In this document: positions 4,989 through 39,205 of the stretch, in pieces
Layout: every line of letters starts with the position of its first letter
How positions within the stretch are numbered: the stretch's first letter is position 1
Origin: a virus
Lineage: Duplodnaviria; Caudoviricetes
Virus record (IMG/VR): IMGVR_UViG_3300028833_000066
Direction: 5' to 3' (one strand)
Length of the DNA: 64,000 bases
The notes under the pieces: generated by a model
The model's database searches: none
What the model saw: the letters and a program-made list of their open reading frames with translations, nothing else
Told to the model about the DNA's origin: nothing
Made by a program: the position numbers and the translations under genes

Positions 4989-7900
4989 TCATATAGCCAA
5001 GCTATATACGATACTGCTAGTAGCACTAGTACCACGATTAGTGCTATTAACGTTACCATTGGAGCTGACTTGAATAAATTTGAAACGTGTTTGCTGACTT
5101 CCGGATAGAATTGAACGAGTCCACCATCCAGTTGCGGCAACCCATCCACCAGTATTACCTGTCGGTAATTTCAACGCAGGATAATTTGTAGAAGTATCAG
5201 TTGCTAATGTGATACCAGTATTTACATCAGTACTATCTACATACATAAATGGATAAGACGCGCTGTCAGAATTAACGACAATCAAAATATCACCGCGGCG
5301 TAAAGCCTTGTTTTGACCCGCAAGTACTGAATAAGCATTTTCCGTAGTAGCGGTAAAATTCGCTACAATTTTCTAATTAAAGATTAATGGAATATGCGGG
5401 AAACGAATATTAGCATATTGCGCATTTCCAGTAATAGTCTCAAAAGTAGAGCTTGCGCCATCAAGAACTGTAAATGTAGAAGCTTTATACCATGGGAATG
5501 GACCATTTGCTTCTGAACCATAATTACTTGCTGTTTCAGAAGTCTCGCGTAATTCACGGAAAGTTGGCGCAAAGATAAAGTCCTAACTAGTTTTATCTTG
5601 CGTTGTGATATTAAAGCCAGTGGTCATATTTACATTCTAATATAATGCTTCACGATAGTGAACCGTCTTTAATGTCATTGCAGACTATAAAATAACCGGG
5701 AGACTATCAAAAATACGAGTATTATAGAATTTCCGCAATGTAGAATTTTCCCAACTAATAGTTGTAACATTTGGTGTAAAAGAAGATCTCATTGGTTCTG
5801 TAAACATACCTGCATCGGAAGCATTTAATGCTGTTAGCGCAATATTATCAATATTAGTACTGTGCGCCGTAGTATTTTCAGAATAGTCTGCTACTGCAAA
5901 AGTCATAGTCTCATGACACCAGTTGGCTAAGCGCTAGCATTCGCTACGGCCCAAATCTTTATCCCAATAAGAAGCCGCATAGATTGTACCATAAGCATTA
6001 ATATGCGTATTATCTGGATTAATTAAACCGCCTAATACTAATTCCGCGTCAGAGGTTAAATCGCCTGCTTGCCAATAAAGTGTGTTTACTGCGGCGTTCA
6101 TATCAACCTTAAATCCACTAGCGTCAGAACCGCTATATACATATAAGTTTTTACTGCCAGCCTCATGTCGTAATACAACAATATGCCGATATTCGGTATT
6201 ATTATTTATCACACAAATATTCATAGATGAACTAGTAGTAGAATCAGTATCACCAAAACCAACACGTGGTACACGTGATGTTCCTTCCTCACGAGGATCA
6301 TAATATAGCTTAAAGCCAACCGTTGTACCATTAATAGTGGCTAAACAGGAGGCCAATATGGCTTCAATTGCGCTTTCAGAGCTACGTGTTCCTAACTTAT
6401 AATCTAGCATTAATGTAAATCCTTTCTCTGAATCTGCGAAAGGCTTAATACCAGTACGATAAACTGCGGCTGTATTCGCATCAAATGTTCTCATGCTACT
6501 TAATGACCATGTTGCATCAGGGCCATTATAACCCATCTATAATGCAAATCTATCCATAAGACCAAATGCTTCAGACCCACGAATATCAGCTAAACGAGAT
6601 GCTAAAAATAGTTTTTCTTCAACTGGGAAATCATCATTAGCCATTTCATTCATGTAGTTAATATTAGAACGTTGTAGCCAATGGCCATAAATATCATATG
6701 TGCCGCCAATTTCTGTAGGCGCAATATTAGTTGGTGAAACCGTCCAGCCGTCAAAGATACGATAAGAACATGTTTTAGCTACAGTATTAGCGCTAAATCC
6801 ACGAACTGTCTCATATCCTGCGGTGCGCATTTCACGAATTGTTGGAGCTACAATATTTGCTCCACCGCCATAAGGCTGCGCCTATTCATCAGTAGTTTCA
6901 GCAACCGCATTCGCATCCTCTGGCTCCAAGAACCATCTAATTTTGTATAATTGAGGTTCGGTACTAAATGTCGCAATAACAGTTAATTCTTCGTCATTTA
7001 CTGGATAGTCATCACGAGAGGCTACCGCATTTTCTGCAGCAATAGAAGACGTATGACCTTCAATAGTCCAACCAGAGTTGCGTTGATAAGTGCCGCCAGA
7101 AAGTAAAGTACCAAAGATATATTTACTACGAATATTAGGTTCTTTAGTTGGCGCGGCTTCAATTAACTAATATTCTGGATCACTATTCCATGGATCAGGG
7201 AACGCAGTGCCGCTATTAATATAAGTCTCATAAATTTGCGCTCCTTTAGTAACAACATCACCAGTTTCATCATCTATTATATCAGCATATTTATATATAA
7301 TATGACTTTGATTAAAGATATTTGCATTAGAAGTATCCCAGTCAACGCCAGGCCAAGCATTACGATAATTCTTAATTTCTTGGCTACCTAAAGCACCATT
7401 GATTTTAATTTTACCAGTAATTTCAATATCTTTTCCATTATTACGCTTCTTAAGCAATTCTTGTAAAATAGTAGTAGAATTTAACTCCCAATTAATTCCA
7501 AGCAAAGAAGTAGCATTTAACGTATCTACAATATCTTCAACTATACTCTTAGAATCAATTCCATTTGTATTTTCACATACAAAACTACTGATATAATCAT
7601 TACCAGCAAGAGTTAAATTAGTTAAATCATATAAATTACGTAGACCCAAAGATGTTAATGTATTAGGCAAAATAGCTTCAATTAACTTACCATTGGTAGC
7701 AAAAGTAACACCACGTAATCCAGTATTTTCAGCATAAAGCTTTTGTAAATTAATACAAGAACTTAAATCAAGATTACTAGTTAATCCTGTACAATTACGA
7801 AGATTTAATTCTTCAAGTAATGGGTTATTTCCTAAACCAACACTTGCGATAACCGCATTTTCATATCCGGCAGTATTATTGCCAAGCACTAATTTGCGTA

Positions 7901-10900
7901 GTTTACGTGCTTTACTAAAGTTATTATCACGAATATAACATGCTGATAAATCGCTCAATTCTTGAATACGAGAAGCACCATAAATAACAATCTATAGTGT
8001 ACTTGGGTCATCAATAGTAGCAGGAGGCGTAATATCATACTCTTGTCCTGCTTTAACCCTTTGAGAAGTTGGTGCTACATTACCATACATAACACGTAAA
8101 TACATGTCAGAATATGGAACAATTTTTAGCGTATAATTTGCAGGAACAACCGCGGCCGAAGCTGCGCTAGGTACGCCCAAACGTAAGTCAATTGTGTCTT
8201 CCAAGACAGCCGCCTATAGATATTTAGTAGCCATATAAATTTCCATATCACGTTCAAACTGACGGCGTTGATAACGTTTGCGTCCATTAGCCATGTCTCG
8301 TAAGAATGTAACATTTTTTACGTATTCTTGAGTTGTAGGATTATAGCTACCATCACGATATGGTCTAATATATTTACGTTCAATATCTAGACGCCATAAT
8401 TCTTCTGGGAACTGATTTTGCCAAGTGTCAAACTCATCAATTAAATTTTGAGCATTCCATGCCTGAACACTAACAGTAGATGAATACATATTAGCTAATT
8501 GAGTGCCCATAAGTCCTCTAATGCGGCGCCAGAAAACACTGCGGCCGGCATTATAAAGTAAAGCACTTGATCCTTCAATAAAGTCAATATCTTCTTTACC
8601 ATATGTAATATTTAAAATACCAGAGTTATCAATACCCAATGCAGTATCATTATCATAATCCCATAAATCAAAACGATAGCCATTATTGATTGCGGCTGCC
8701 GCATTATTAATAGTATAATTTTCTGCATCAGCCCCCATCTCTTCTGCCTCAGCTTCAGTAATATATGTTTTACCAAAGTGCCAGAATGAGTTTTTCGCAC
8801 GATTATCAATCATACTATAACGTTCTGTAAAGACATACCAATACAATGGAGATTCAACAATAAACCAGTTACCTAATTCTGCGGCAAAACGATCGTCTGG
8901 ACAAGTTACAAACCATGTATACATCTCAATCCATTTTTCTTTGTTAAGACGTTGCTAAGCTTTAATTTCCGCCTTATCCATAGTTTCACCATCTTTTGTT
9001 CCCATGTCATATCGGAACTCAAAAGAAGAATCCCAATTGGTAATTACATCTTTCTCTTCACCGGTGTCTTTATCAATTTTAGTTCCTGACACGTATCCAT
9101 CAACGCTTAAAGATTTACGAGCAAGATTGTTCTCATTATTCCATTCATCAGCAGTAATAGGATACTTCATATACTCCATACCTAAGTTTTCATAAGTAGT
9201 GGTAGTATGCGTATCATCAGTCCAATATACACCAGTCTAGAACATAGAGTTTGGTAAATTATTATCAGAAATTTCCACAACAAACTCGTTCAAATCAGTT
9301 GGATCATTAACACGAGTATTGTCGGTCTTTTTAGAATCGCCAATATTACCAATACCATAGAAATGCCACTCATTGTCTAAGAACTCTCTGTGCGCAGACA
9401 TATCTTGGCTACTTTCCTTTATGAAAATAACACAATTCTAGAACTCCATGCTATTCTTTACACGCGAATCCCTACGCTGTGCGGGAGTTTTATATGGCAA
9501 ATAACGATTATAACGCTTCTATAAAAGTGCATTATTAGCATTTTCAGAAGAAGCAATATTAACTTTAATATTAAACCAACTATTTTCTACTGATGTATCA
9601 CTTAAATTAATTTTTGCGTCTGCTCCAGTAAGAATAGTACCGTCAGCAAATTCAACCCTTGAAACGTAACCTTGTACTGTATTTTCTGGTATTTTACTTA
9701 CAACTGTATGTGTACCATCAAAACCAAAAATAATATCAATATTACGGCCCGCAGCACCATAACGATTAGAACTAGTACCTTGTCCTACATGGAAACCATT
9801 TGTAAAAGTCCAGTTATCATGTGAACGTCCATTACCTTGACGACATGTTACAGTAGTATTCTTCACATAATCTGCCTTATCATTGGTAAAATAAGGAGCT
9901 TCAATACAAATTACTTTCAAATCTGGGCAAGCCGCGACTACCGATTCTGGAGTTAATTTACCTTCTGTGTCATAAATTTGATTACGATTATAACGATCAA
10001 GCATCTCTTCAGGAGTGACAGCATCAGCATAGAAATTCTTTAAAATATTAGCGTCAGTTAATGCCGCACGATACACCTTCAATCTATAAATTGCTACATC
10101 ACAATCATCAGAACCAATAGTGATTGGTACTGGTTCAGACTGTGTTAAAATATGATCGCTATTATAGAGTAATGGTCTGGCTCCAACGCCATCTTCATAT
10201 GTCATAATGATAGAATCGCCAGTGAGCGGACTAATATTATATTCAAATTCGATACGGTCGTCTTCACTGTATGGCTACATTAAACTATCAGCAGAAGTAT
10301 AAATTTTTGCTTCATGTGCCCGCATATCAATACCAATCGGAGTACCATTATTTTCTGAAATACAACTTAAAATCTAGGCATTAACATTACGGACTTGTGA
10401 TACTTTAAAAATACACTTAAAGTTTGCACCAGTATTCGCACTGTCTAAGCCGAATAAATTAAAGTTAACGGTTGCACGATTACCGGCTTTTACACAAAAG
10501 TAAGTATTGCCATCTGCGTCAATCTAGTAGCCGCCATTGTTTAAATCAAAACCCTTAGATAGTGTTATAGACGTAGTGCCCGATGTCCAAGCTACTACTG
10601 ATTCTCCCGCGGCAACATTAGTATTTATTTCTGTATTAGAACGCCCAGCCGGATTAAAATCAAAAGCTAAATTGTCAGTAATTGGAGCAATTTCTTCAGG
10701 CAATTCAGTAACATTAAGACTAATTGTTACTTTAGCACTTCCGCATTCAATAGATAATGTTTCTGTTCCTACAGTTGTCGCACGATAAGCCCAAATATTA
10801 TCCATTTTATCTACAGTAAATGTACTAATAACCTAATCATTGCGTTTTAATGTAATCGTTGGATATTTATTAACTGGATCATATACTGTATATGGAATAT

Positions 10901-13247
10901 TTAAAACGCCATACTATGTCACATTAATTTGACCATAACGATAAGAACACCCAAGTAATGGCGTAGTTGAATTCTCATCTACATACATAACATCTTTATA
11001 AATATGTGGAATTGGAGTTTCTAATTCCTTTCCACCAGCAGTAGCTGTTAAGTATGCTTCTAATAAATAAGTGCCATGTGGTTTTGCAGGTAATTGATAT
11101 GGAATATTAGTGCCAGCACTATCAGAAGTAACTGTGGGTAGAGCTGTACCATCTAAAATAACATGTACGGTTTTAGAAATACTGCCAGTAGTACTGTATA
11201 CAAAATTAACAGTGTCATTCGCAGTATAAGCATAACTTTCATTAAAGTTAGATGTCATACTAATATTAACACGTTGTATTGTCCAAGTACGAGTTACTAA
11301 TGTACCAGTCTCATCAGTAACACTTAATGTAGCACTACGCTAAGTACCAACTGGGCAATAATTAGTTAAATCAAATGTTTTAAGCCCGTTATAAATATTA
11401 CCAGTTTCTACGGTAGATCCTCCAATACGCCACGCATAAGTACCAGAATAGCTACTACCAGTATCTTCATCAGTAGAATTATATTCTACTGTAATCTCTA
11501 ATTTATCTTCACTTAGGGCAATTACTGGTGATTTTGTAATTGGTGTAACAGTCAAATTAGAAGTCGCACTTTGTCCGCCACCGCCGCCCATAATCTAAAA
11601 ACGACTAACAAGAATCGGGTTACTGTGGTCTGTATCAGTCTTATCAACTTCATATAAAGAGAACATATTTTCTTGTGTAACTTCTTCATTGTTAATTGTT
11701 TCGGTTACTTTTCCATAAGTAGCATAATATCTCTTATCATCTGCGCCAAGTCCAGCAACTGCAGTATCAATTAAATTATTAATTTGTGTATTAGAGTATC
11801 TATCGCCGCCAATTTTATAAAACTGACCACGTATATAGCGATAATGTTCATACGCCCCTATAGTAGAATTAAATAAATAATAATCCATTTCTTCTGAAGC
11901 GTCCGCAGCCTGCGGCAATACATTTACAATTTCAGCGCTATTATTACCAGTACCGCCGCCACCAGCACCGCTAATTAATTCCCAATTATTATTAATATAG
12001 CGCCAATAATAATATTTATCATCATCAGCTTGAATTAAATAATCAGCATTTGCAGATGGTGATTCAATATTTGGAATGTCATTAGTATAATTGCTACCAG
12101 TTGCTGGTTTATCAACTACAATAGTATCTTTACCTTCTAATGTAGTTACTCTTCCAGTTAAAGCAGTTAAATCTGCTGCCGCAGCCTTAGTTGCTAAAGC
12201 ACTATTAACAGTTTCAGCAACTGCTAAAGTGTCTAAACGAGCGTCTAGATTAGCACTTTCACCACGAGCAGTTACAACTTCTGTGGCAATATCTTCAAGA
12301 TCATTTAATCTATTATCAGCATCAATACCCTCTAATGCCGCAACACGGCCACTTAATGAATTACCTTCATTATCGCCAATAGAAGTTTCTAATGCATCAA
12401 TACGCTGTGTTAAACCGCCCTTATCATTTTCATCGTTTTCATCTTTTGTATGAGAAATAGCAGTTTCAAGTGTATCAATACGGCTAGAATCAAGCTGACC
12501 TACTTCTGCTTTTAAATCAGCAACATCTTGTTCTAAATCGCTTAAATAGTCTTCTAATGTCTCCCAAACATTATCTTCATCACTGTCTAATGCACTCTTT
12601 AAAGCGTTTTCTAAAACTGCAATACGAGCAGCTAGAGCAGTCAATGAACCACTATCAACATCACTACCAGTAATAGTCTCAATCGCGGCTTCAAGTGCAA
12701 TGAAACGATCATTTAAATTAATGCCATTAGAGTTATTATTTCTAGAACGTAAAACAGCTTCAATAGCATCAAATCTAGAATCTAATGAATCAACATAGTC
12801 ATTTGCTGGATTTACTAGTTCAGAACCAGTTCTGTGAGCGTTTTGTATTTCACTAGATAAACTAGAAATAGTAGCATCTGCGCCAATCGCTGTATTGATT
12901 TGTGTAGTCAATGATTGTGCAGTAGGAATACTACCTTCCATACTATTTAAACGTGCTAACATACTTTCATGACTACCTTTGGCAGTATCAAGCATGCTTT
13001 TAACATTTGTCATATCTTGAGTTAATCCAGTAATGTTAGGAACGTCTAAATCATCTATGGCTCGTGCTAATGTTTTTACTCCTTCAGTGGCATTAATGAT
13101 ACCGGTGTCTATATGATTTAATTTCTTTATCGTAAGTTTTTCACCAGGCACCCAAGTACCGCTTTCTTCATTCTGAAGGTCGCCTTCAGGATCGCCAGTA
13201 CCAGCCCTAGAATAACTTAAAACTTTTAATTCTTCAATCTCAGCCAT
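4989..13247 (-). CDS. Giant virion/tail protein, 2752 aa: N-terminal coiled coil, CotH-kinase-like domain, leucine-rich repeats, LamG-like region, C-terminal DUF6273-like domain (code 15)
   Basis: 14 ORF-track pieces are in the same frame, separated by about 21 TAGs with no TAA/TGA seen; motifs [10 protein letters not shown]...[27 protein letters not shown]; AAGGAGG RBS; ends at TGA 4989. Confidence 0.85.
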
Positions 13248-32835: not shown

Positions 32836-33076
32836 AAAATTTTTATAAATTTGTAAAAATTTGGCTGCCGGCAAATATTTGACTTGTGTCAAACACTTGA
32901 CAAAAATAGTTAGTTAGTCATAACTAACTCCTAAAAAATTTTTTTATTTGGGGCTTGACAACTTGACACGAATGTGATATAATGGTAGAGGTGGGAGAGT
33001 ATCTGGCGGCGCCGGCAGAATTTTGTGCCGGCATGATTTTTATGTCGGCAAAGAAAAAAAGGGTAGTTTCCTACCC

Positions 33077-33316
33077 TTATTCGCGATAGTCATCATAGAT
33101 TTCAATACTGTAAGGAATAGCCACAACTTCATGTGCGTCTACATCATGAGCACAACATCCTTGAGTAATTTCAATGTCTTCATTGAAAGCAAAGTTTCTT
33201 CCAATAATCAAGGGATGCTTTTGCTTGTGCATAAAATTTACCAATTCTTCAACGGTAGAGAAATTCTTTATTCCCATGTAGTAATCAGAAGAGGTGCGAG
33301 TGAGAACAAATTTCAT
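33077..33316 (-). CDS. Hypothetical early protein
   Basis: Own promoter, RBS and terminator; IEIYDDYRE C-terminus. Confidence 0.7.
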   Translation of the reverse strand: MKFVLTRTSSDYYMGIKNFSTVEELVNFMHKQKHPLIIGRNFAFNEDIEITQGCCAHDVDAHEVVAIPYSIEIYDDYRE

Positions 33317-33478
33317 AATGAATCCTTTCTGGTTTTAAGGACTGTCCTTGTCCTCTTTCATCTTTTATTATATTCATTTTATTTTATTTGTCAATACCTT
33401 TTTGAAAAAATTTTATGCCGGCACGAAAAAAGGGTAGTTTCCTACCCTTATGGTTCAACTTCAATATCATAGGCACTA

Positions 33479-33733
33479 TTAACAAATCTCTTTTTCATTT
33501 TTATACCATTTGTTTGTATCTGCGTAAGAAGGAAGTTTGTCAATATGGGTTATACGATTACAGGCGAGAGGAGGACATTCCATCATTTCATGAGCACGCC
33601 ATTCTGTGATTCGTGTGCCTTGAATGATAGGAGTATCATTTTTGAAATAGATAGTACCTACGCCTGTAACGGTTACGCGAACATAAGAGGGATGTTTTTC
33701 GTAGGCTTCAATTTGCTTGCGGATTTTATTCAT
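33479..33733 (-). CDS. Hypothetical early protein
   Basis: Own promoter and RBS. Confidence 0.6.
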   Translation of the reverse strand: MNKIRKQIEAYEKHPSYVRVTVTGVGTIYFKNDTPIIQGTRITEWRAHEMMECPPLACNRITHIDKLPSYADTNKWYKNEKEIC

Positions 33734-33857
33734 ATGATTGCTCCTTTCGGTTTGTGAGGTTTCCTTCCTCTTTCATCTTCTATTATACTCACTTTATTTT
33801 ATTTGTCAATACCTTTTTTGAAATTTTTGCCGGCGTAAAAAGGGCAGTTTTCTACCC

Positions 33858-34010
33858 TTACAGAATCACCATTTCACCATTCTGGTCTTTAACGCACTGG
33901 ATAAAGGCACCCGCCATGATGAGTTCATTCTGACGCTTGCGTGCTTCTTCAATGGTTGCGGCACGAGCAAAGTCCATGCGGTTATTGAGAATATAATAGA
34001 TTGTGTACAT
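33858..34010 (-). CDS. Small early protein (50 aa)
   Basis: AAGGAG RBS; MYTIYYILNNRMDF... Confidence 0.55.
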   Translation of the reverse strand: MYTIYYILNNRMDFARAATIEEARKRQNELIMAGAFIQCVKDQNGEMVIL

Positions 34011-34037
34011 TTTTTATTTCTCCTTTCTAACAACTGA

Positions 34038-34247
34038 TTAGAAACCTAAGATAAATGAAAGTTTTAAGGGAAAAGAAGTATTACAATCTGGACACTTGAT
34101 ATAATAATCAATATGATTGCGTGTATCTTTTTTCCAATGAATTTGCGGATCATCTGCGGTAAATTCAAAGACACACCCACACGCACATTTGATTGTGCAA
34201 ATTTTGACAAGATTATTTTGTTTTTTACCATGCTGAAGGATTTTCAT
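34038..34247 (-). CDS. Zinc-ribbon protein
   Basis: CACGC..CPDC. Confidence 0.65.
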   Translation of the reverse strand: MKILQHGKKQNNLVKICTIKCACGCVFEFTADDPQIHWKKDTRNHIDYYIKCPDCNTSFPLKLSFILGF

Positions 34248-34270
34248 TTTATTTCTCCTTTCTGATTAGG

Positions 34271-34489
34271 TTAATCGCCAACGATTGCTTCTGTCAAATC
34301 CATCCAATCATCATAACGTTCAAGAATCTTAACGTCTGTGGGTTCAAATACGCCTCCGCAACAACCACAAATTACGTTCGTGATAGTTTCACCATCGCCA
34401 CCAATGATAGCAATGCCACCGAAGATGTTGGTTTCACCTTCATTGATGAAGTCAGGATTGATGACTTCAAATTTTACTTGCTGATACAT
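34271..34489 (-). CDS. Hypothetical early protein
   Basis: VICGCCGGVFE; own promoter. Confidence 0.7.
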   Translation of the reverse strand: MYQQVKFEVINPDFINEGETNIFGGIAIIGGDGETITNVICGCCGGVFEPTDVKILERYDDWMDLTEAIVGD

Positions 34490-34622
34490 ATGTACATTCC
34501 TTTCTGGTTTAGAGTTTTCCTTCTCTTGATTACAATTAGATTATACCATAAATTTTAAGAATGTCAAGTGTTTTTTTGAAAAATGTGCCGGCCAAAGAGT
34601 TAGATAAATCTAACTCTTTTTA

Positions 34623-34904
34623 TTATAGCAATGCGGCAATAGCATTATCTACCGCTTCTTTATATCTTTCACCCAGACGAGCCGCTACAGCCTTGATAAG
34701 TTTGAGCGAAGTTGCGGGGTCGCTGAGAAAAGTTTCAATGGCATAGTCATCGCTATAATATACATGAAGATCTTCATGAAGATTACGCAAGAATTTACTG
34801 TCCCACGGGTTATAAATATCATTCTGTTCAAGCAAGTTCTCAACAATAGTGTCAATGTCGTCAGGCGTGATGGTCAGGGTGACAGTCTTGGTGATATTTT
34901 CCAT
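34623..34904 (-). CDS. Hypothetical early protein
   Basis: Own promoter and RBS. Confidence 0.65.
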   Translation of the reverse strand: MENITKTVTLTITPDDIDTIVENLLEQNDIYNPWDSKFLRNLHEDLHVYYSDDYAIETFLSDPATSLKLIKAVAARLGERYKEAVDNAIAALL

Positions 34905-35077
34905 TGTTTTGTCCTTTCTGGTGTTAAGGATTTTCCTTTCCTTTTTACAAGTAAATTATACCACAGATTAGAAAAAAGTCAAGAGTTTTTTGAGTTAGCG
35001 GCAACTAAATTTTATGCCGGCCAAGTTAGTCATAACTAACTTGCGGCAAAAAGAAAAGAGGGCCGAAGCCCTCTGCC

Positions 35078-35413
35078 TCACGCGAGGCGGTAGGTGTTGG
35101 GCTTGCCCTCAATCTTGACGATGCGATCAGCCCAGTTGTGGGTCAGACCGTACTGGATCTTACCCTTGGTGAAACCCTCAGGCAGATTAGCCTCAACCTG
35201 CTCGAAGATCTCCGCCACGGTCAGCGGGGCAGTCGTGAGGGCGAAGACACCGCGGACGATGTCCCACGCGGTCTCATAGCCCGCGTCCTTCTCGGCCTTG
35301 GCGACTGCACCCTTATTCAGTTCGGCTTCGAGTTCGGTCTTGATTTCGTCAATATTGGTCACGGTCTCACCATTGAGGAAGGAAACGAGAGACTTGATGG
35401 TGGCAATACGCAT
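35078..35413 (-). CDS. Winged-HTH-like early protein, paralog A1
   Basis: LTVAEIFE..FTKGKIQYGLTHNWADRIVKIEGKPNTY. Confidence 0.75.
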   Translation of the reverse strand: MRIATIKSLVSFLNGETVTNIDEIKTELEAELNKGAVAKAEKDAGYETAWDIVRGVFALTTAPLTVAEIFEQVEANLPEGFTKGKIQYGLTHNWADRIVKIEGKPNTYRLA

Positions 35414-35620
35414 AGTAGATACCCTTTCTGGTTTTTGAGACTGTCCTTGTCTTTTCATTTATATTCTACCACATTTCGTGGAGAATGTCAAGCATTTTTT
35501 AGGAAGTTGCGGAAGGTTTAACAGTCCCAATTACGCATTACCGCCCAACTAATGCCACCGCTTACATCCTTATTATAGCACAGGATTTGCTGTTTGTCAA
35601 GGGCTTTTTGAAGATTTTTT

Positions 35621-35775
35621 GTTTCAAGGTTTGCTACTTGTGGGCTCGAACTACTCTTACGCCATTTCCAATTACCAACCGAAGGAGTAGCAGAGAGAGG
35701 AGAACCAAGTTGAACGGTATTGTAGGTTTGACTGGGCGTCACCATCACCAGATGGAGCACTCTCTCCCTTGGAAC
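35621..35775 (-). ncRNA. Candidate small RNA with paired ends
   Basis: Promoter 35782-35809; 5' GUUCCAAGG pairs with 3' CCUUGAAAC; no convincing ORF. Confidence 0.4.
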
Positions 35776-35884
35776 AATTATATTATATCATAATTTGCCA
35801 GAAAGTCAATTACAAAAGTGTTAAGATTTTATTACAATTATATTAACAGGCCGGCTCAGTTAGATACAACTAACATAAGAGCAA

Positions 35885-35991
35885 AGAGAAGGGGAGGAAT
35901 CGAACCTCCCTTGGTTTACCACAACCTACGGCGAATCGAACGCCCTACGACACCTTTCGGGTATCTGCTGTTACCAGTGAGCCACTTCTCT
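35885..35991 (-). ncRNA. tRNA-like RNA with acceptor stem, D-like arm and two T-loops, but no canonical anticodon arm
   Basis: AGAGAAG/CTTCTCT stem; TGGCTCACTGGTAACAGC; GGCG-TTCGATT-CGCC; GGGAGG-TTCGATT-CCTCCC; promoter at 36150-36177. Confidence 0.65.
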
Positions 35992-36238
35992 TTTAATTGT
36001 GAAGAATTTTGGCTGTCCCTCGGGTGCCTTGTATCATTCTTCACAGTTCCGTATAGGGACTTGCAAGTGAGGTTGTCTGTGAGGATGCCTTACCCCGAAT
36101 GACTTATCAGGGGCCTCGTTCCGTTTTCCTCTCCCCTTGGAACAATTACATTATACCGCAATTTTGAGAATTGTCAAGTGGTTTTGAAAAAAAAGATTGC
36201 TAAGTTTTTAACAACCCGTGACCGGCAAAAAAGTTAGA

Positions 36239-36454
36239 TTACTCTAACTCTTCTTCTTCCTCTTTATAATATTTTTGATTGTCCTCAAAGCACTCTTTTG
36301 CGAAAAAGCAAATACCATGATGGTTGAGATAACAATGGGCACAATGATGATTATTTTGGATACATTTAGCAAGGTATTCATTTAATACTTTTATTGTTAA
36401 TTCCTCTTTATATATGGCTTCGATTTGTCGCTGTAACTGTTTTTCATTCATCAT
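36239..36454 (-). CDS. Small Cys/His-rich protein
   Basis: CAHCYLNHHGICFFAKEC. Confidence 0.55.
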   Translation of the reverse strand: MMNEKQLQRQIEAIYKEELTIKVLNEYLAKCIQNNHHCAHCYLNHHGICFFAKECFEDNQKYYKEEEEELE

Positions 36455-36728
36455 CACTATTATCCTCCATCGTATCTTCATATCCGTATACATCGCCTGC
36501 CCACCGAATTTCATCTTCTGCAAAATCCGTAGGGGCATCGGGGTCAACATCATCTGCGGCGAGCCAATCTTCCCAACTCTCCCAGAATGCACCCCAGTCA
36601 TCGCAATCTTCCATCGGGTCATCAATGTGACAAATACCCATCTGGTCGCAGTAGGGGCAATCGCCATAGGCATTCACGGGGCAGTAGGTATAGTCGCCAT
36701 TGTAGGTTCCCTTTTTCACATCACGCAT
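36444..36728 (-). CDS. Acidic Cys-rich protein
   Basis: CPVNAYGDCPYCD..CHIDDPMEDCDD; GGAGG RBS. Confidence 0.65.
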   Translation of the reverse strand: MRDVKKGTYNGDYTYCPVNAYGDCPYCDQMGICHIDDPMEDCDDWGAFWESWEDWLAADDVDPDAPTDFAEDEIRWAGDVYGYEDTMEDNSDDE

Positions 36729-36903
36729 TTTTCTTTTCCTCCATTTTCATTTTATGATTTCTCCAAATTTTAGCATAGAAGACTACTTTTTCAGGATATT
36801 GTATTTTTGAAAAACCTTCACAAACCTGATAGAAAGTATCAACATAGATAGCATGGCAATGCTTACAGAGAAACTTGATGATCGTATTTATAATGGTGGT
36901 CAT
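36721..36903 (-). CDS. Hypothetical early protein
   Basis: AAGGAGG RBS; promoter 36926-36954. Confidence 0.55.
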   Translation of the reverse strand: MTTIINTIIKFLCKHCHAIYVDTFYQVCEGFSKIQYPEKVVFYAKIWRNHKMKMEEKKNA

Positions 36904-37094
36904 TGTTCTTCCTCCTTTACGCTCTCATTATAGCATTGTTTATACCATTTGTCAAGAGTTTTTCTTGCGGTTTTACGAAGTTTTTTCTTTAAGCGACGAC
37001 GTGCGGGAGTGCTTTGATCTATCCATTGACGACACCCTGTATTCAAATCCCAAGCTGCAAGTTCATCATGATATTTATGCTCGTTCTTACGCAT
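36900..37094 (-). CDS. Basic hypothetical protein
   Basis: AAGGAGG RBS; promoter 37117-37146. Confidence 0.55.
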   Translation of the reverse strand: MRKNEHKYHDELAAWDLNTGCRQWIDQSTPARRRLKKKLRKTARKTLDKWYKQCYNESVKEEEQ

Positions 37095-37168
37095 TTATTA
37101 TCCCTCCTTACATGCCTATTATAGCATACATAGGAAAGTTAGTCAAGCCTAATTTTTTCGCCGGCACC

Positions 37169-37444
37169 TTAACGGCTATAATTAAGGATGTCACGACCTT
37201 CCTTAAAGTCATAGATAGAAATCATAGTGCAGTCTTTGTCATATAGATAGATAGCGGCGGCTTGAAGTAAAGCAATAATATCGTCACCGCATTCACTCTT
37301 ACCGTTCTGGCCGTATACCGTAATCATTTGATACCGATGCTTCTTATCACGAAGCTGCTGACGCAAAGAATCATTTTCAAGACGTAACTGGTCAAGTTCC
37401 TCTTCCAATTCGCTAATACGCAGGCTCATTTCAAATTCATCCAT
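37169..37444 (-). CDS. Coiled-coil early protein
   Basis: Own promoter and RBS. Confidence 0.65.
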   Translation of the reverse strand: MDEFEMSLRISELEEELDQLRLENDSLRQQLRDKKHRYQMITVYGQNGKSECGDDIIALLQAAAIYLYDKDCTMISIYDFKEGRDILNYSR

Positions 37445-37542
37445 CGTGATTCCTCCTTAGTTATTTCTTCTTACAGTTTGATTATATCATAAAGTAGACA
37501 GTTAGTCAAGACTAATTTTCTTGCCGGCGGCAAATGGGAACA

Positions 37543-37746
37543 TTAGTTCCCATTCGCACGACTGACAGAAAGGTCTACCAGTTCATAAGAACGCTCAATA
37601 TCAAACCGACAGCCGCATTTATCACAACGACATGACCACCACTGTGCGGCACCATCCAGTCCGCTAAAATCATCACCGTAATCTTCAATGGTATAATCTT
37701 CCGAACCACACACGGGGCAAGCCTCTTTGTCAAAATTTTTACGCAT
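37543..37746 (-). CDS. Zinc-ribbon protein
   Basis: CPVC...CDKC. Confidence 0.65.
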   Translation of the reverse strand: MRKNFDKEACPVCGSEDYTIEDYGDDFSGLDGAAQWWSCRCDKCGCRFDIERSYELVDLSVSRANGN

Positions 37747-38131
37747 TTTCCTGTGCCTCCTTTTCCTTTTCCTTGGCTTCACGCTTAGCCTTGTCGCGGG
37801 CGATCTTCTCTTCCTTTGCCTTGACCTTTTCGGCTTTCTCAGCCTGCTTGGTGTTGTAAGCATTGATTTCGTTCTGCATCAGTTCGCGGGCAGTCATGTC
37901 TTCGCGTTCCTCTGCTACGATGACGCCTACGCGGCAATAGCGTTCGACGCCATTTTTATCGGTCAGAATGCAACCCCACTGTCTATCATTGATTCTGCGA
38001 TACTCTGCATTATCTGTCCAAAAGGCATTGGGTTTAACACCATTAACAGAAGCAGAGTCCAGGTCAAAAATTTCAGTGAAGATACGGTCACGGAGGTCAG
38101 CATCAACAACAGTCTTCGCAATCTTCGCCAT
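37739..38131 (-). CDS. Early protein with Lys/Ala/Glu-rich tail, paralog B1
   Basis: KAEKVKAKEEKIARDKAKR; similar to 44245-44619. Confidence 0.7.
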   Translation of the reverse strand: MAKIAKTVVDADLRDRIFTEIFDLDSASVNGVKPNAFWTDNAEYRRINDRQWGCILTDKNGVERYCRVGVIVAEEREDMTARELMQNEINAYNTKQAEKAEKVKAKEEKIARDKAKREAKEKEKEAQENA

Positions 38132-38435
38132 AGAGATTCTCCTTTCGGTTTGTAGGGTGTCCTTCCCTTGATTACAGTTAGATTATATCACACATTTTGA
38201 TTATTGTCAAGAGATTTTTCAGAAGTTTCTGAAAATTTTTGTGTCCTCTCCGCATAAGCCAACCCTCTGGGGTGCTTATGCACGTGCGTTTCTTTACCGC
38301 CCCACCGAAGATTTCTTCGGGATGGTCGTCACATCCTCTTGACATTATTGATTATACCTGATGCCAAGACTTTTGTCAAGTAGTTTGTGCGATTTTCTTT
38401 TGTTAAGTTTTTCACAAGCGGGGCCGGCATAATAG

Positions 38436-38888
38436 TTAGTTATGACTAAACAACTGTGCTTCAAAGTCACGGGCAAGTTTGCGGTGTTCATAGGTGGCAA
38501 GCCAATTAATAGCCCATTCAGTGGCTATATATTCAGAAGGAATGTCAAAGTATACACTGAAAGCCGCGTCACGCTTAATCTCGTCATCCTCAATCCAATC
38601 AATTTCTTTGCGGGTTGCCCAATGTCCTAACTCGTGGAGGATAGCAAGAGTAATGTCAGAGAAATTATTTGCGAGAGGACAACGATTGACAAAATCTTCA
38701 CGAAATGCAACGTCCTCTTCTTCGGGTATGTAATTAATAACAGAGGGCACAAGCAAACGCGGGTTTGGCTTGTTATTAATATCCATTCCCCAATTATTGC
38801 TCATTCGCTTGCGTGCGATTGTTACGCGGTCGCCAATGGCCTTGCTTGCAAACTCGCGGATTAATTGAATCTGCATCATCTTTATCAC
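38436..38888 (-). CDS. HExxH metallopeptidase-like protein
   Basis: ILHELGHW...E..A..WA. Confidence 0.65.
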   Translation of the reverse strand: MIKMMQIQLIREFASKAIGDRVTIARKRMSNNWGMDINNKPNPRLLVPSVINYIPEEEDVAFREDFVNRCPLANNFSDITLAILHELGHWATRKEIDWIEDDEIKRDAAFSVYFDIPSEYIATEWAINWLATYEHRKLARDFEAQLFSHN

Positions 38889-38953
38889 TCCTTACACCCG
38901 TATTATATCACGCACAATAGAGTTAGTCAAGTATAACTTTGCCGGCGGCTGTC

Positions 38954-39205
38954 TCAACCCGCATAGAGTTGAGACAGAAAGTAGAGGTTGAGGACAATGC
39001 TGGAAAAATGAAGCAAGAAGTCATTTACATGGCGGTTCTGGTTAGTAAAGTCCTTAAAGATACCAATAAGAGCAATGCCAAGGCCGAACCAAGCAGAGCC
39101 GAAACCGCAAGTGATGATGAGAACAACATTGAGAACCATGCCCGCAGCACGCAAGTCCTGCCATTCAAGTTTATAAGGGGCATAAAGATTAAAGAACTTA
39201 CGCAT
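38954..39205 (-). CDS. Small membrane protein
   Basis: Hydrophobic segments; own promoter. Confidence 0.6.
   Translation of the reverse strand: MRKFFNLYAPYKLEWQDLRAAGMVLNVVLIITCGFGSAWFGLGIALIGIFKDFTNQNRHVNDFLLHFSSIVLNLYFLSQLYAG

What the first reader, a model, noticed from the sequence alone, without database searches (positions are those of the whole stretch)
35883..36145. tRNA-like non-coding RNA with two T-loops and no anticodon arm
Seen on the minus strand: a 7-9-bp acceptor-like stem AGAGAAG/CTTCTCT, a D-arm-like TGGCTCACTGGTAACAGC and a terminal GGGAGG-TTCGATT-CCTCCC T-arm. In place of the anticodon and variable arms are three hairpins: GATACC-CGAAA-GGTGTC, GGCG-TTCGATT-CGCC (a second T-loop) and GGTT-GTGGTA-AACC. 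It ends an ORF-less transcript of about 260 nt from promoter 36150-36177, and no CCA is encoded. Inference: a tRNA mimic processed by RNase P/Z, such as a decoy for anticodon nucleases, T-boxes or synthetases, a Y-RNA/tmRNA-like molecule, or a component of the TAG code switch.
Basis: partly seen in the sequence, partly recalled or inferred. Interest (0 to 1): 0.83.

Follow-up and report, generated by a model that had tools for sequence, protein, structure and literature searches.

The report
Phage tRNA-Phe look-alike with second elbow
A rumen phage makes, from its own strong promoter, a 108-base RNA that is a phenylalanine-type tRNA carrying an extra tRNA "elbow" in its variable region. This is a new layout of the little-understood two-elbow tRNA mimics of phages, and its function is still unknown.

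Summary
The element is real. On the minus strand, 35884-35991 folds into a closing stem, a D arm, three hairpins and a terminal T arm, with two perfect TTCGATT loops.

One part of the first description is wrong. The first hairpin is an anticodon arm in the canonical place: a 5-bp stem and the loop CCGAAAG. When the 33-38 nt T-arm plus GG-hairpin module is deleted in silico, ARAGORN calls tRNA-Phe(GAA) in 42 of the 48 deletion variants tried. So this is a tRNA-Phe-type body with a second "elbow" (T arm + D-like hairpin) inserted in the variable region. It has C33 instead of U33, a possible C32:G38 pair and discriminator U.

Two metagenome contigs carry the same 113-nt block at 99-100% identity. 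Their leaders (36-63%) and downstream DNA (34-37%) are mosaic, and a close relative lacks the cassette.

The same six-helix layout recurs in uncultured phages, and T5 RNA2 is an annotated two-T-arm relative in kind. This scan has noted two-elbow phage RNAs before, on other DNA.

My best reading is a processed, non-decoding tRNA mimic made early in infection. Its target is unknown. Nothing ties it to the TAG switch: an intron-split tRNA, probably CUA, elsewhere in the genome is the likelier suppressor. No Ro, tmRNA or Rfam match was found.

The parts
36150..36177 (-). Sigma-70 promoter: TTGACA, 16 nt, TATAAT. The inferred transcription start is near 36143.
   Evidence: 12/12 consensus match. 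The promoter is kept in orthologues L143 and L144.
35996..36143 (-). ORF-less leader of about 150 nt. It begins with TTGTTCCAAGGGGAGAGG, a leader shared with the next transcription unit. It ends in a 10-bp hairpin (GUGAAGAAUG...AUUCUUCAC). It holds a conserved palindromic block, CAACCTCACTTGCAAGTC, at 36058-36075.
   Evidence: The leader is mosaic among orthologues, 36-63% identical with 41-43-nt indels.
35883..35995 (-). The sharply bounded conserved block TAAAAGAGAAG...CTTCTCTTT, which is the tRNA-like RNA gene.
   Evidence: 112-113 of 113 positions are identical in the window, L143 and L144. The only change is U29 to C, which turns a G.U pair into G-C in the anticodon-type stem.
35985..35991 (-). 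5' strand of the 7-bp acceptor-type stem (AGAGAAG), followed by U8 and G9.
35967..35982 (-). D arm 1: GCUC-ACUGGUAA-CAGC, with A14, G18G19 and A21.
   Evidence: Sequence; ARAGORN drawing.
35949..35965 (-). Anticodon-type arm: GAUAC/GUGUC stem and loop C32 C33 G34 A35 A36 A37 G38 (GAA = Phe). C33 replaces the near-universal U33. C32:G38 can pair and shrink the loop to 5 nt.
35929..35945 (-). Extra T arm (T1): GGCG-UUCGAUU-CGCC, flanked by a direct GUAG repeat. It lies in the variable region.
35913..35926 (-). Extra D-like hairpin (D2): GGUU-GUGGUA-AACC. Its loop holds UGGUAA, as does the loop of D arm 1.
35892..35910 (-). Terminal T arm (T2): GGGAGG-UUCGAUU-CCUCCC. The scan also flags it as terminator-like, because a U-rich strand follows.
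35884..35891 (-). 3' strand of the acceptor-type stem (CUUCUCU) plus discriminator U. No CCA is encoded.
35850..35876 (-). AGTTAG...CTAACT hairpin plus GCCGGC. This inter-unit motif recurs between transcription units of this region. It may act in termination or regulation.
   Evidence: Repeat families D6, D7 and D14.

Best explanation
This is a real gene for a tRNA-derived RNA of about 108-113 nt. Its body is a phenylalanine-type tRNA: acceptor stem, D arm, anticodon-type arm reading GAA, and T arm, with the usual tertiary-contact bases.

A 36-nt module is inserted in the variable region. The module is a second T arm with a perfect TTCGATT loop, followed by a D-like hairpin with GG in its loop. 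In other words it is a second tRNA 'elbow'.

The gene is transcribed as the 3' part of an ORF-less RNA of about 260 nt. The promoter is a consensus sigma-70 promoter in a block of small, individually promoted genes that I infer to be early genes.

Inferred steps, none shown: RNase P and RNase Z (or termination at the U-rich 3' strand) release the tRNA-shaped piece. Because of C33, a closable C32:G38 pair and discriminator U73, it is a poor or null decoder and a poor PheRS substrate. It then works as a stable tRNA mimic that occupies a host factor recognising tRNA shape. Candidates are an immune tRNase, RNase P, a T-box leader, a modification enzyme or the ribosome, with the second elbow adding a second docking surface.
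For: Shown:
- The fold is stable and specific: z = -3.2, 0 of 200 shuffles as stable.
- RF00005 aligns end to end, at 18.2 bits.
- Deleting the insert gives tRNA-Phe(GAA) by ARAGORN in 42 of the 48 deletion variants tried.
- The five best ordinary-tRNA matches of a model built from the element are all tRNA-Phe.
- The 113-nt block is 99-100% identical in three contigs, against 36-63% for the leader and 34-37% for downstream DNA. Its one change keeps a pair.
- The cassette sits next to different genes in L143 and L144 and is absent from relative G001. It therefore behaves as an independent module.
- The promoter matches 12 of 12 consensus positions.
- The same acceptor-D-hairpin-T-D-T layout recurs in IMG/VR. 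L084 shows it by MFE, and so does L042, except that its second GG segment is unpaired. Of 114 double-T-loop sites, 30 are closed by a 7-bp stem, against 3.4 expected after shuffling.
- T5 RNA2, a stable tRNA-like RNA, also has two T arms.

Weak:
- Sheep-gut metatranscriptome contigs cover the element exactly.
Against: - There is no covariation. The three orthologues are near-identical, so the fold rests on energy, the tRNA consensus and conservation alone.
- No transcript ends, CCA addition or charging state are known. The RNA-library contigs could come from contaminating DNA.
- The non-decoding claim is an inference. The loop can still open to 7 nt with GAA, many PheRS determinants are kept, and the phage's own tRNA set lacks tRNA-Phe.
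- No binding partner was identified.
- The identity of the three copies could reflect recent exchange rather than long purifying selection.
Confidence: 0.4

Rival explanations
1. It is a working, decoding tRNA-Phe(GAA) with an oversized, class-II-like variable region. The altered loop (C33, G38) and the extra domain would make it resistant to host anticodon nucleases, or specific for phage needs.
For: - It has a canonical cloverleaf skeleton and reads as tRNA-Phe once the insert is removed.
- The body carries G10, U20, A26, G34-A36, G44, U45, U59 and U60 (sequence). From memory, Peterson & Uhlenbeck 1992 list these as E. coli PheRS determinants.
- The phage's 22-25 tRNAs include no tRNA-Phe.
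- Phage tRNAs are known to carry anticodon-loop changes that evade tRNases (PMC10264068).
Against: - U33 is replaced by C.
- C32:G38 can close the loop to 5 nt.
- The discriminator is U, not A73.
- The acceptor and T stack is 13 bp (7+6), or else has a bulged C.
- All other RNAs with the same layout have 4-nt hairpin loops that cannot decode.
- The gene lies 64 kb from the phage tRNA array, under an early-type promoter.
Confidence: 0.2
2. It is a cis-acting punctuation element. The tRNA shape would recruit RNase P/Z, or the T2 hairpin plus U-rich strand would terminate transcription. Either way it would define or stabilise the 3' end of the leader RNA or separate early transcripts, as plant-mitochondrial t-elements and MALAT1-mascRNA do.
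For: - It lies at the 3' end of an ORF-less transcript, between two promoters.
- T2 followed by CUUCUCUUU is flagged as terminator-like.
- The conserved block ends exactly at the UUU.
Against: - The leader it would serve is the least conserved part, at 36-63% identity with large indels.
- A processing signal needs neither a second T arm, nor a D-like hairpin, nor an anticodon-type arm, yet all are 100% conserved.
- The neighbouring transcription units do without such an element.
Confidence: 0.15
3. It is a functionless relic: a pseudo-tRNA, or a recombination scar between two tRNA genes.
For: - It scores below the tRNA thresholds.
- A GUAG direct repeat flanks T1.
- The nearest relative lacks it.
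Against: - The block is 99-100% identical amid mosaic flanks.
- Every helix and both T-loops are intact.
- It has its own consensus promoter.
- The same layout recurs in unrelated phages.
Confidence: 0.05
4. It takes part in the TAG recoding switch (as suppressor or helper), or it is a Y-RNA or tmRNA analogue.
For: The phage's late genes are TAG-recoded, and ARAGORN finds no plain CUA tRNA.
Against: - There is no CUA in any loop.
- A group-I-intron-split tRNA at genome 101727-102108 can be joined to a CUCUAAA loop.
- ARAGORN in tRNA+tmRNA mode found no tmRNA on the whole genome.
- Neither Rfam search gave a Y-RNA match.
- The phage has no TROVE/Ro gene.
Confidence: 0.03

Closest known systems
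Bacteriophage T5 RNA2 (gene rna2, AY543070 32959-33083), annotated 'tRNA-like stable RNA with unknown functions'
   Same: - Phage-encoded, with a tRNA-type closing stem, a D arm and a terminal T arm.
- It has a second internal T arm with a TTCGATT loop, followed by a GG-containing segment.
- It is non-coding and its function is unknown.
   Different: - In T5 the second T arm is nested inside the anticodon-arm position, so no anticodon loop is left. Here the anticodon-type arm is kept and the extra elbow sits in the variable region.
- T5 RNA2 lies in the tRNA gene region. This one is solitary in a block of small promoter-driven genes.
- There is no useful sequence similarity: the model built from this element scores RNA2 at 14.7 bits.
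Unannotated double-T-arm tRNA-like elements of uncultured phages (for example loci L084, L045 = IMGVR_UViG_3300042311_001063, and L042 = IMGVR_UViG_3300047548_001427 with its relatives)
   Same: - The order of parts is the same: acceptor stem, D-like hairpin, short hairpin, T arm, GG-bearing segment or hairpin, T arm.
- L084 reproduces all six helices by MFE.
- None of them is matched by a named Rfam family at these elements.
   Different: - Their middle hairpins have 4-nt loops (GACG, GGCA) that cannot be anticodon loops.
- L042, L033, L017 and L026 sit in tRNA gene arrays, and one element lies in the intervening sequence of a permuted tmRNA gene (L121).
- The sequences are unrelated outside the T-loops, which were the search pattern. 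Common descent is therefore not shown.
Canonical bacterial or phage tRNA-Phe(GAA)
   Same: - Acceptor 7 bp; U8; D arm with A14, G18G19 and A21; A26.
- 5-bp anticodon stem with G34 A35 A36 A37.
- G44, U45, and a T arm with TTCGATT.
- The best ordinary-tRNA matches of the element's model are tRNA-Phe.
   Different: - A 36-nt T-arm plus D-hairpin insert in the variable region.
- C33, G38 and U73.
- A 6-bp T stem.
- Below the RF00005 cut-off, and missed by ARAGORN.
Bacteriophage T4 species 1 RNA (rnaC)
   Same: A stable phage RNA of unknown function with a tRNA-like 3' T arm and closing stem.
   Different: rnaC has a single T arm, lies in the tRNA cluster and has a different body. T4's other small RNA, rnaD, has no T-loop.
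YrlA-type bacterial and phage Y RNAs (tRNA-like module bound to Ro/Rsr)
   Same: A non-decoding RNA that mimics the D/T elbow and acceptor of a tRNA (from general knowledge; Chen et al. 2014, PMC4201824, as cited in earlier scan notes).
   Different: - I saw no long Ro-binding helix, though I ran no dedicated test for one.
- Neither Rfam search gave a Y-RNA match.
- The phage has no TROVE gene.
- This element has two T arms, not one.
Class II tRNAs and tRNA-Sec (long variable arm)
   Same: Extra structure emerges from the variable region. There is a partial tRNA-Sec model match at 20.4 bits, and possibly a 13-bp acceptor/T stack.
   Different: The variable region here holds two hairpins, one of them a full T arm. 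The anticodon is GAA, not UCA. The score is far below the tRNA-Sec cut-off of 47.

Membership tests
Canonical tRNA (Rfam RF00005 / ARAGORN) | Score at or above the family threshold; detected by tRNA finders | tested here: not met
   RF00005 gives 18.2 bits against a cut-off of 29. ARAGORN finds nothing at default settings. It is detected as tRNA-Phe only after in-silico removal of the insert.
Canonical tRNA (Rfam RF00005 / ARAGORN) | Cloverleaf with acceptor, D, anticodon and T arms and the tertiary-contact bases (U8, A14, G18G19, T54, C56, A58) | tested here: met
   All are present in the sequence and in the ARAGORN drawing. The RF00005 alignment spans model positions 1-71.
Canonical tRNA (Rfam RF00005 / ARAGORN) | 7-nt anticodon loop with U33 and an unpaired 32/38 | tested here: not met
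   The loop is CCGAAAG, with C33. C32 and G38 can form a Watson-Crick pair, and the MFE fold gives a 5-nt loop.
Canonical tRNA (Rfam RF00005 / ARAGORN) | Aminoacylation and decoding | not testable with these tools
   This needs charging assays. The discriminator U73 differs from the A73 of the five tRNA-Phe genes compared.
Two-elbow (double-T-arm) phage tRNA-like RNAs, e.g. T5 RNA2 | tRNA-type closing stem enclosing two T arms with consensus T-loops, each accompanied by a GG-bearing D-like loop | tested here: met
   T1 at 35929-45 with D2 at 35913-26, and T2 at 35892-910 with D1 at 35967-82. T5 RNA2 was checked directly.
Two-elbow (double-T-arm) phage tRNA-like RNAs, e.g. T5 RNA2 | Second elbow replaces the anticodon loop (T5 RNA2 topology) | tested here: not met
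   Here the second elbow is 3' of an intact anticodon-type arm, in the variable region.
Two-elbow (double-T-arm) phage tRNA-like RNAs, e.g. T5 RNA2 | Sequence or profile homology to a described member | tested here: not met
   The element's model scores T5 RNA2 at 14.7 bits, E = 0.03. blastn against 50,697 phage records finds nothing.
Two-elbow (double-T-arm) phage tRNA-like RNAs, e.g. T5 RNA2 | Accumulates as a stable small RNA | not testable with these tools
   Only contigs from RNA libraries were available, not reads.
tmRNA | tRNA-like domain with G3:U70, plus a tag reading frame and pseudoknots | tested here: not met
   ARAGORN in tRNA+tmRNA mode finds no tmRNA in the whole genome. Acceptor pair 3:70 is A-U. 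The Rfam searches gave no tmRNA match.
Y RNA / YrlA | Match to a Y-RNA model; Ro (TROVE) partner gene | tested here: not met
   Neither Rfam search gave a Y-RNA match, even at E up to 10. The phage has no TROVE match. A host Ro protein cannot be excluded.
Amber suppressor tRNA (TAG recoding) | CUA anticodon in a 7-nt loop | tested here: not met
   No CTA occurs anywhere in the element. A better candidate exists at genome 101727-102108.
tRNA-Sec | 8/5 or 9/4 acceptor/T geometry, UCA anticodon, score at or above 47 bits | tested here: not met
   20.4 bits in a partial alignment; the anticodon is GAA.

The most novel reading that the evidence does not exclude
Two-elbow tRNA look-alikes would form a widespread class of phage host-takeover or anti-defence RNAs. 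The class would include this early-expressed tRNA-Phe-type version, T5 RNA2 and the many unannotated double-T-arm genes in phage tRNA arrays. They would work as bivalent decoys for factors that recognise the tRNA elbow, such as immune tRNases, RNase P, T-box leaders or the ribosome. Here the mimic would be uncharged and non-decoding, and deployed at the very start of infection.
Probability: 0.25. Interest if true: 0.8.

Novelty: new variant of a known kind. Interest (0 to 1): 0.55.

Why it matters
Phages have been known for some 50 years to make stable tRNA-like RNAs (T4 species 1 RNA, T5 RNA1 and RNA2) whose function is still unknown. In recent years tRNA has also emerged as a main battleground of phage defence: PrrC, PARIS, retron PtuAB, bacterial Schlafens, OLD and Cas12a3 (PMC13056530, PMC12445682, PMC12851939, PMC11555353).

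This element is useful for two reasons:
- It shows a new way to build a two-elbow mimic: a recognisable tRNA-Phe body with the extra elbow in the variable region.
- It places the mimic under its own early-type promoter as a self-contained cassette of about 300 bp. That makes it an easy construct to express and test against defence systems and tRNA-binding enzymes.

It also shows that standard tRNA finders and Rfam miss this class.

Tried and rejected
**Searches that found no homologue**
- blastn of the 600-nt locus against 50,697 phage records gave no match.
- The exact 17-mer of the anticodon-type hairpin in IMG/VR hit only two unrelated coding sites.
- Pattern TGGTAA...CCGAAAGG...TTCGANTC in IMG/VR found a different tRNA-like family, not homologues.
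- The element-specific pattern found nothing in 185,579 species-representative genomes.
- The general double-T pattern in those genomes gave mostly tRNA genes with duplicated 3' ends (att-type repeats) and only a few true look-alikes.

**Models and alignments**
- A covariance model built from the element alone did not separate double-T elements from ordinary tRNAs: both score about 20-34 bits. I dropped it as a membership test and used it only to see which tRNAs resemble the body.
- A MAFFT alignment of diverse double-T elements was structurally incoherent in the 5' half. No class-wide covariation statistics were computed.
- RNAalifold on the three orthologues found 0 compensatory pairs.

**Expression and relatives**
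- Contigs of runs X4, X5, X8 and X9 give no transcript ends or strand. Runs X8 and X9, and the joints across 35455-36129, only show that relatives lack the cassette.
- Relative G001/L123 has the homologous promoter and leader but no tRNA-like element.

**Partner genes and literature**
- The phage has no TROVE, CCA-adding enzyme or RtcB gene.
- T4 rnaC and rnaD were checked: neither has two T arms.
- I tried to verify the earlier notes on a 108-nt two-T-arm RNA in T4-like phages through phage VR20. It is not present there, so those notes remain untested by me.
- Literature searches for two T arms or a double T-loop in tRNA-like phage RNAs found only the interdigitated T-loop motif of RNase P, T-box leaders and the L1 stalk.

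**Dismissed as chance**
- A second pair of T-loop-like words at window 5075/5116 is coincidental coding sequence.

Full report
**Setting**

The window is the reverse strand of the first 63,975 bp of a 179,585-bp IMG/VR virus record. The DNA occurs in sheep-gut metagenomes.

Long ORFs at both ends of the window open only if TAG is read as a sense codon. One example is 4989-13247, 2,752 aa with 21 in-frame TAG. So the late genes are TAG-recoded.

Between 33,000 and 39,000 the minus strand carries at least 14 near-consensus sigma-70 promoters: 38 promoter-like sites, against 13.4 expected. Each precedes a small gene readable in the standard code. I infer that this is an early, host-polymerase-read region.

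The phage's 22 ordinary tRNA genes lie far away, at genome 92-107 kb.

**The observation**

On the minus strand, 35884-35991 reads AGAGAAG-UG-GCUC ACUGGUAA CAGC-A-GAUACC CGAAA GGUGUC-GUAG-GGCG UUCGAUU CGCC-GUA-GGUU GUGGUA AACC-AAG-GGAGG UUCGAUU CCUCC-C-CUUCUCU-U.

- The MFE structure contains exactly these helices. It is more stable than all 200 dinucleotide shuffles (-43.4 kcal/mol, z = -3.2).
- A 12/12 consensus promoter lies at 36150-36177.
- No ORF of 50 aa or more lies on that strand between promoter and element.
- ARAGORN and Rfam at gathering thresholds report nothing.
- The general tRNA model matches end to end, but at only 18.2 bits. tRNA-Sec matches partially, at 20.4 bits.

The first of the 'three hairpins' sits exactly where an anticodon arm belongs. 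It comes after A26, with a 5-bp stem GAUAC/GUGUC and a 7-nt loop C32-C33-G34-A35-A36-A37-G38.

I deleted in silico every combination of start 44-49 and end 76-83. That removes the second T arm and the GG hairpin. ARAGORN called the remainder a canonical 72-83-nt tRNA-Phe(GAA) in 42 of the 48 variants.

I also built a covariance model from the element alone. Its five best ordinary-tRNA matches among about 945 kb of phage loci were all tRNA-Phe(GAA).

The element is therefore a tRNA-Phe-type body with a 36-nt insert in the variable region. The insert consists of:
- a T arm with a perfect G53-TTCGATT-C61 loop;
- a 3-nt linker;
- a 4-bp hairpin whose loop, GUGGUA, carries the same UGGUAA as D loop 1.

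Topologically, the insert is the top corner of a tRNA (T arm joined to D arm) without an acceptor stem. That makes it a second 'elbow'.

The resemblance to tRNA-Phe is not proof of descent. CGAAA and GAAA loops also occur in the equivalent hairpin of unrelated double-T elements (L145, L088, L064). I therefore call it tRNA-Phe-type rather than tRNA-Phe.

Departures from a working tRNA:
- C33 in place of U33;
- a C32:G38 pair that closes the loop to 5 nt in the MFE fold;
- discriminator U, whereas all five compared tRNA-Phe genes have A73;
- a 6-bp T stem (or a bulged C), which makes the acceptor/T stack 13 bp.

**Conservation**

One metagenome scan found two orthologues, L143 (Ga0247610_10040516) and L144 (Ga0310691_10208379).

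| Segment | Pairwise identity among window, L143, L144 |
|---|---|
| Block TAAAAGAGAAG...CTTCTCTTT (window 35883-35995) | 112-113 of 113 |
| Leader | 36-63%, with 41- and 43-nt indels |
| DNA after the block, window vs L143 or L144 | 34-37% (L143 vs L144: 96%) |

The single change is U29 to C, which converts a G.U pair of the anticodon-type stem into G-C. The downstream genes differ from those in the window.

The closest IMG/VR relative, G001, has an 84%-identical neighbouring protein. It keeps the promoter and the first leader bases but lacks the element. Contigs in further runs show the same absence.

So the element is a sharply bounded, conserved core of a portable cassette. That argues against a decayed tRNA. 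With three near-identical copies there is no compensatory covariation.

**Expression**

Two sheep-gut metatranscriptome runs from different studies hold exact contigs across 35561/35574-36085. Their word depth is higher than that of the adjoining contig: 69 against 21, and 28 against 11. These are assembled contigs and DNA carry-over is possible. They give no ends or strand. I treat this as a weak hint only.

**A recurrent architecture**

The pattern 'two consensus T-loops 15-45 nt apart' hit more than 119 IMG/VR loci. Of 114 sites with both T stems intact, 30 are enclosed by a 7-bp stem. After shuffling the upstream sequence the expectation is 3.4, with a maximum of 7.

- Several have the same order of parts as this element. 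L084 folds by MFE into the identical six helices. L042 and its roughly ten relatives do so too, with an unpaired UUGG segment in place of D2. Within that group the middle hairpin shows compensatory changes: GAUAC/GUAUC, AGCAC/GUGUU and GGCGC/GCGUC around a constant GACG loop.
- L042, L033, L017 and L026 sit in phage tRNA arrays, and no named Rfam family matches these elements.
- One lies inside the intervening sequence of a permuted tmRNA gene.
- In these relatives-in-kind the middle hairpin has a 4-nt loop, so they cannot decode. That is my main reason to think the present RNA does not decode either.

Among described RNAs, phage T5 RNA2 is annotated 'tRNA-like stable RNA with unknown functions'. 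It also has an internal TTCGATT arm plus a terminal T arm, but the internal arm is nested in the anticodon-arm position. T4 species 1 RNA has only one T arm.

Earlier notes of this scan describe two-elbow RNAs in T5-like, T4-like, N4-like and jumbo phages. I verified only the T5 case.

- TAG switch: there is no CUA triplet in the element. Outside the window, a class-II-like tRNA at genome 101727-102108 is split by a group I intron (RF00028, 46 bits, E = 1e-11). Its exons can be joined to the loop CUCUAAA, which is my inference from the sequence. That is the likelier amber decoder.
- tmRNA: ARAGORN in tRNA+tmRNA mode found none in the genome.
- Y RNA: neither Rfam search gave a Y-RNA match, and there is no Ro/TROVE gene.
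- Partner enzymes: the phage encodes no CCA-adding enzyme or RtcB.

**Mechanism**

Shown:
- a conserved, promoter-equipped, tRNA-shaped gene with a second T-arm/D-hairpin module.

Inferred from what is established about tRNA maturation:
- RNase P cuts 5' of the acceptor stem;
- RNase Z cuts after the discriminator of this CCA-less precursor, or transcription stops at the U-rich 3' strand;
- the host enzyme adds CCA.

Inferred with low confidence:
- the RNA neither decodes nor is well charged;
- it acts as a mimic that occupies a host factor reading tRNA shape, with the extra elbow as a second docking surface.

Candidate targets include the growing list of anti-phage tRNases (PMC13056530, PMC12445682, PMC12851939, PMC11555353, PMC10264068). 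They also include the elbow-docking double T-loop platforms of RNase P, T-box leaders and the L1 stalk (PMC3664808).

The main rival is a nuclease-resistant decoding tRNA-Phe. It is not excluded, because the phage lacks any other tRNA-Phe.

**Verdict**

This is a genuine and unusual RNA gene. It is a new variant of a known but unexplained kind. The evidence for the structure and for selection is solid. There is no evidence yet for function.

Noticed in passing
outside the window: G000:C1:101727-102108 (+): A class-II-like tRNA is split in its anticodon loop by a group I intron (RF00028, 46 bits, E = 1e-11). Joining ...CCGGU-CUCU to AAAACCGU... would give the loop CUCUAAA, anticodon CUA. This is probably the amber suppressor of this TAG-recoded phage. 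The splice site was not proven.
   Followed up: partly
outside the window: G000:C1:104630-105040 and 100955-101143: There is a second group-I-intron match (44 bits) inside a low-stringency ARAGORN tRNA-Leu(UAA) call. A further tRNA (RF00005, 50 bits) carries an insert of about 117 nt in its anticodon loop, with no group I match.
   Followed up: no
window 33000-39000, minus strand: A dense array of consensus sigma-70 promoters, eight of them 12/12 matches, each drives a small gene. Recurrent inter-unit motifs are GCCGGC and AGTTAG...CTAACT hairpins.
   Followed up: partly
window 35766-35780 and 36134-36148: An identical 15-nt leader start, TAATTGTTCCAAGGG, follows two promoters. In the downstream unit it supplies the Shine-Dalgarno sequence for an 80-aa GTG ORF (35518-35760). 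In the tRNA-like unit no start codon follows it.
   Followed up: partly
window 36058-36075, minus strand: The leader block CAACCTCACTTGCAAGTC, with the palindrome ACTTGCAAGT, is invariant in all three orthologous cassettes although the rest of the leader is mosaic.
   Followed up: no
L121:1246-1332 (+): A double-T-arm tRNA-like element fills the intervening sequence of a permuted (two-piece) tmRNA gene, between the ...CCUCCACCA end and the GGGGGCGA start (RF04321, 96.6 bits).
   Followed up: partly
L064, L088, L092, L132, L134, L137, L138 (IMG/VR): A recurrent larger RNA-like element is built of alternating T arms and UGG-loop hairpins: a GAAA-loop hairpin, T arm, CUCGNUGGNCGAG, T arm, then another UGG hairpin. 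It is often right after a tRNA and has no obvious closing acceptor stem.
   Followed up: no
L147-L154 (IMG/VR): Another tRNA-like family: ...UGGUAAGAAAAUC...CCGAAAGG... followed by a T arm and GCACCA. It has GAAA-type loops where an anticodon loop would be.
   Followed up: no
window 36005-36138: In metatranscriptome run X4 the summed contig depth over the leader is 250-300, against about 69 over the tRNA-like part. Related leaders from other phages may be abundant in that RNA library.
   Followed up: no
outside the window: G000:C1:93456-93526: An odd 71-nt tRNA-like sequence with a good T arm lies directly after tRNA-Met. Only low-stringency ARAGORN calls it.
   Followed up: no
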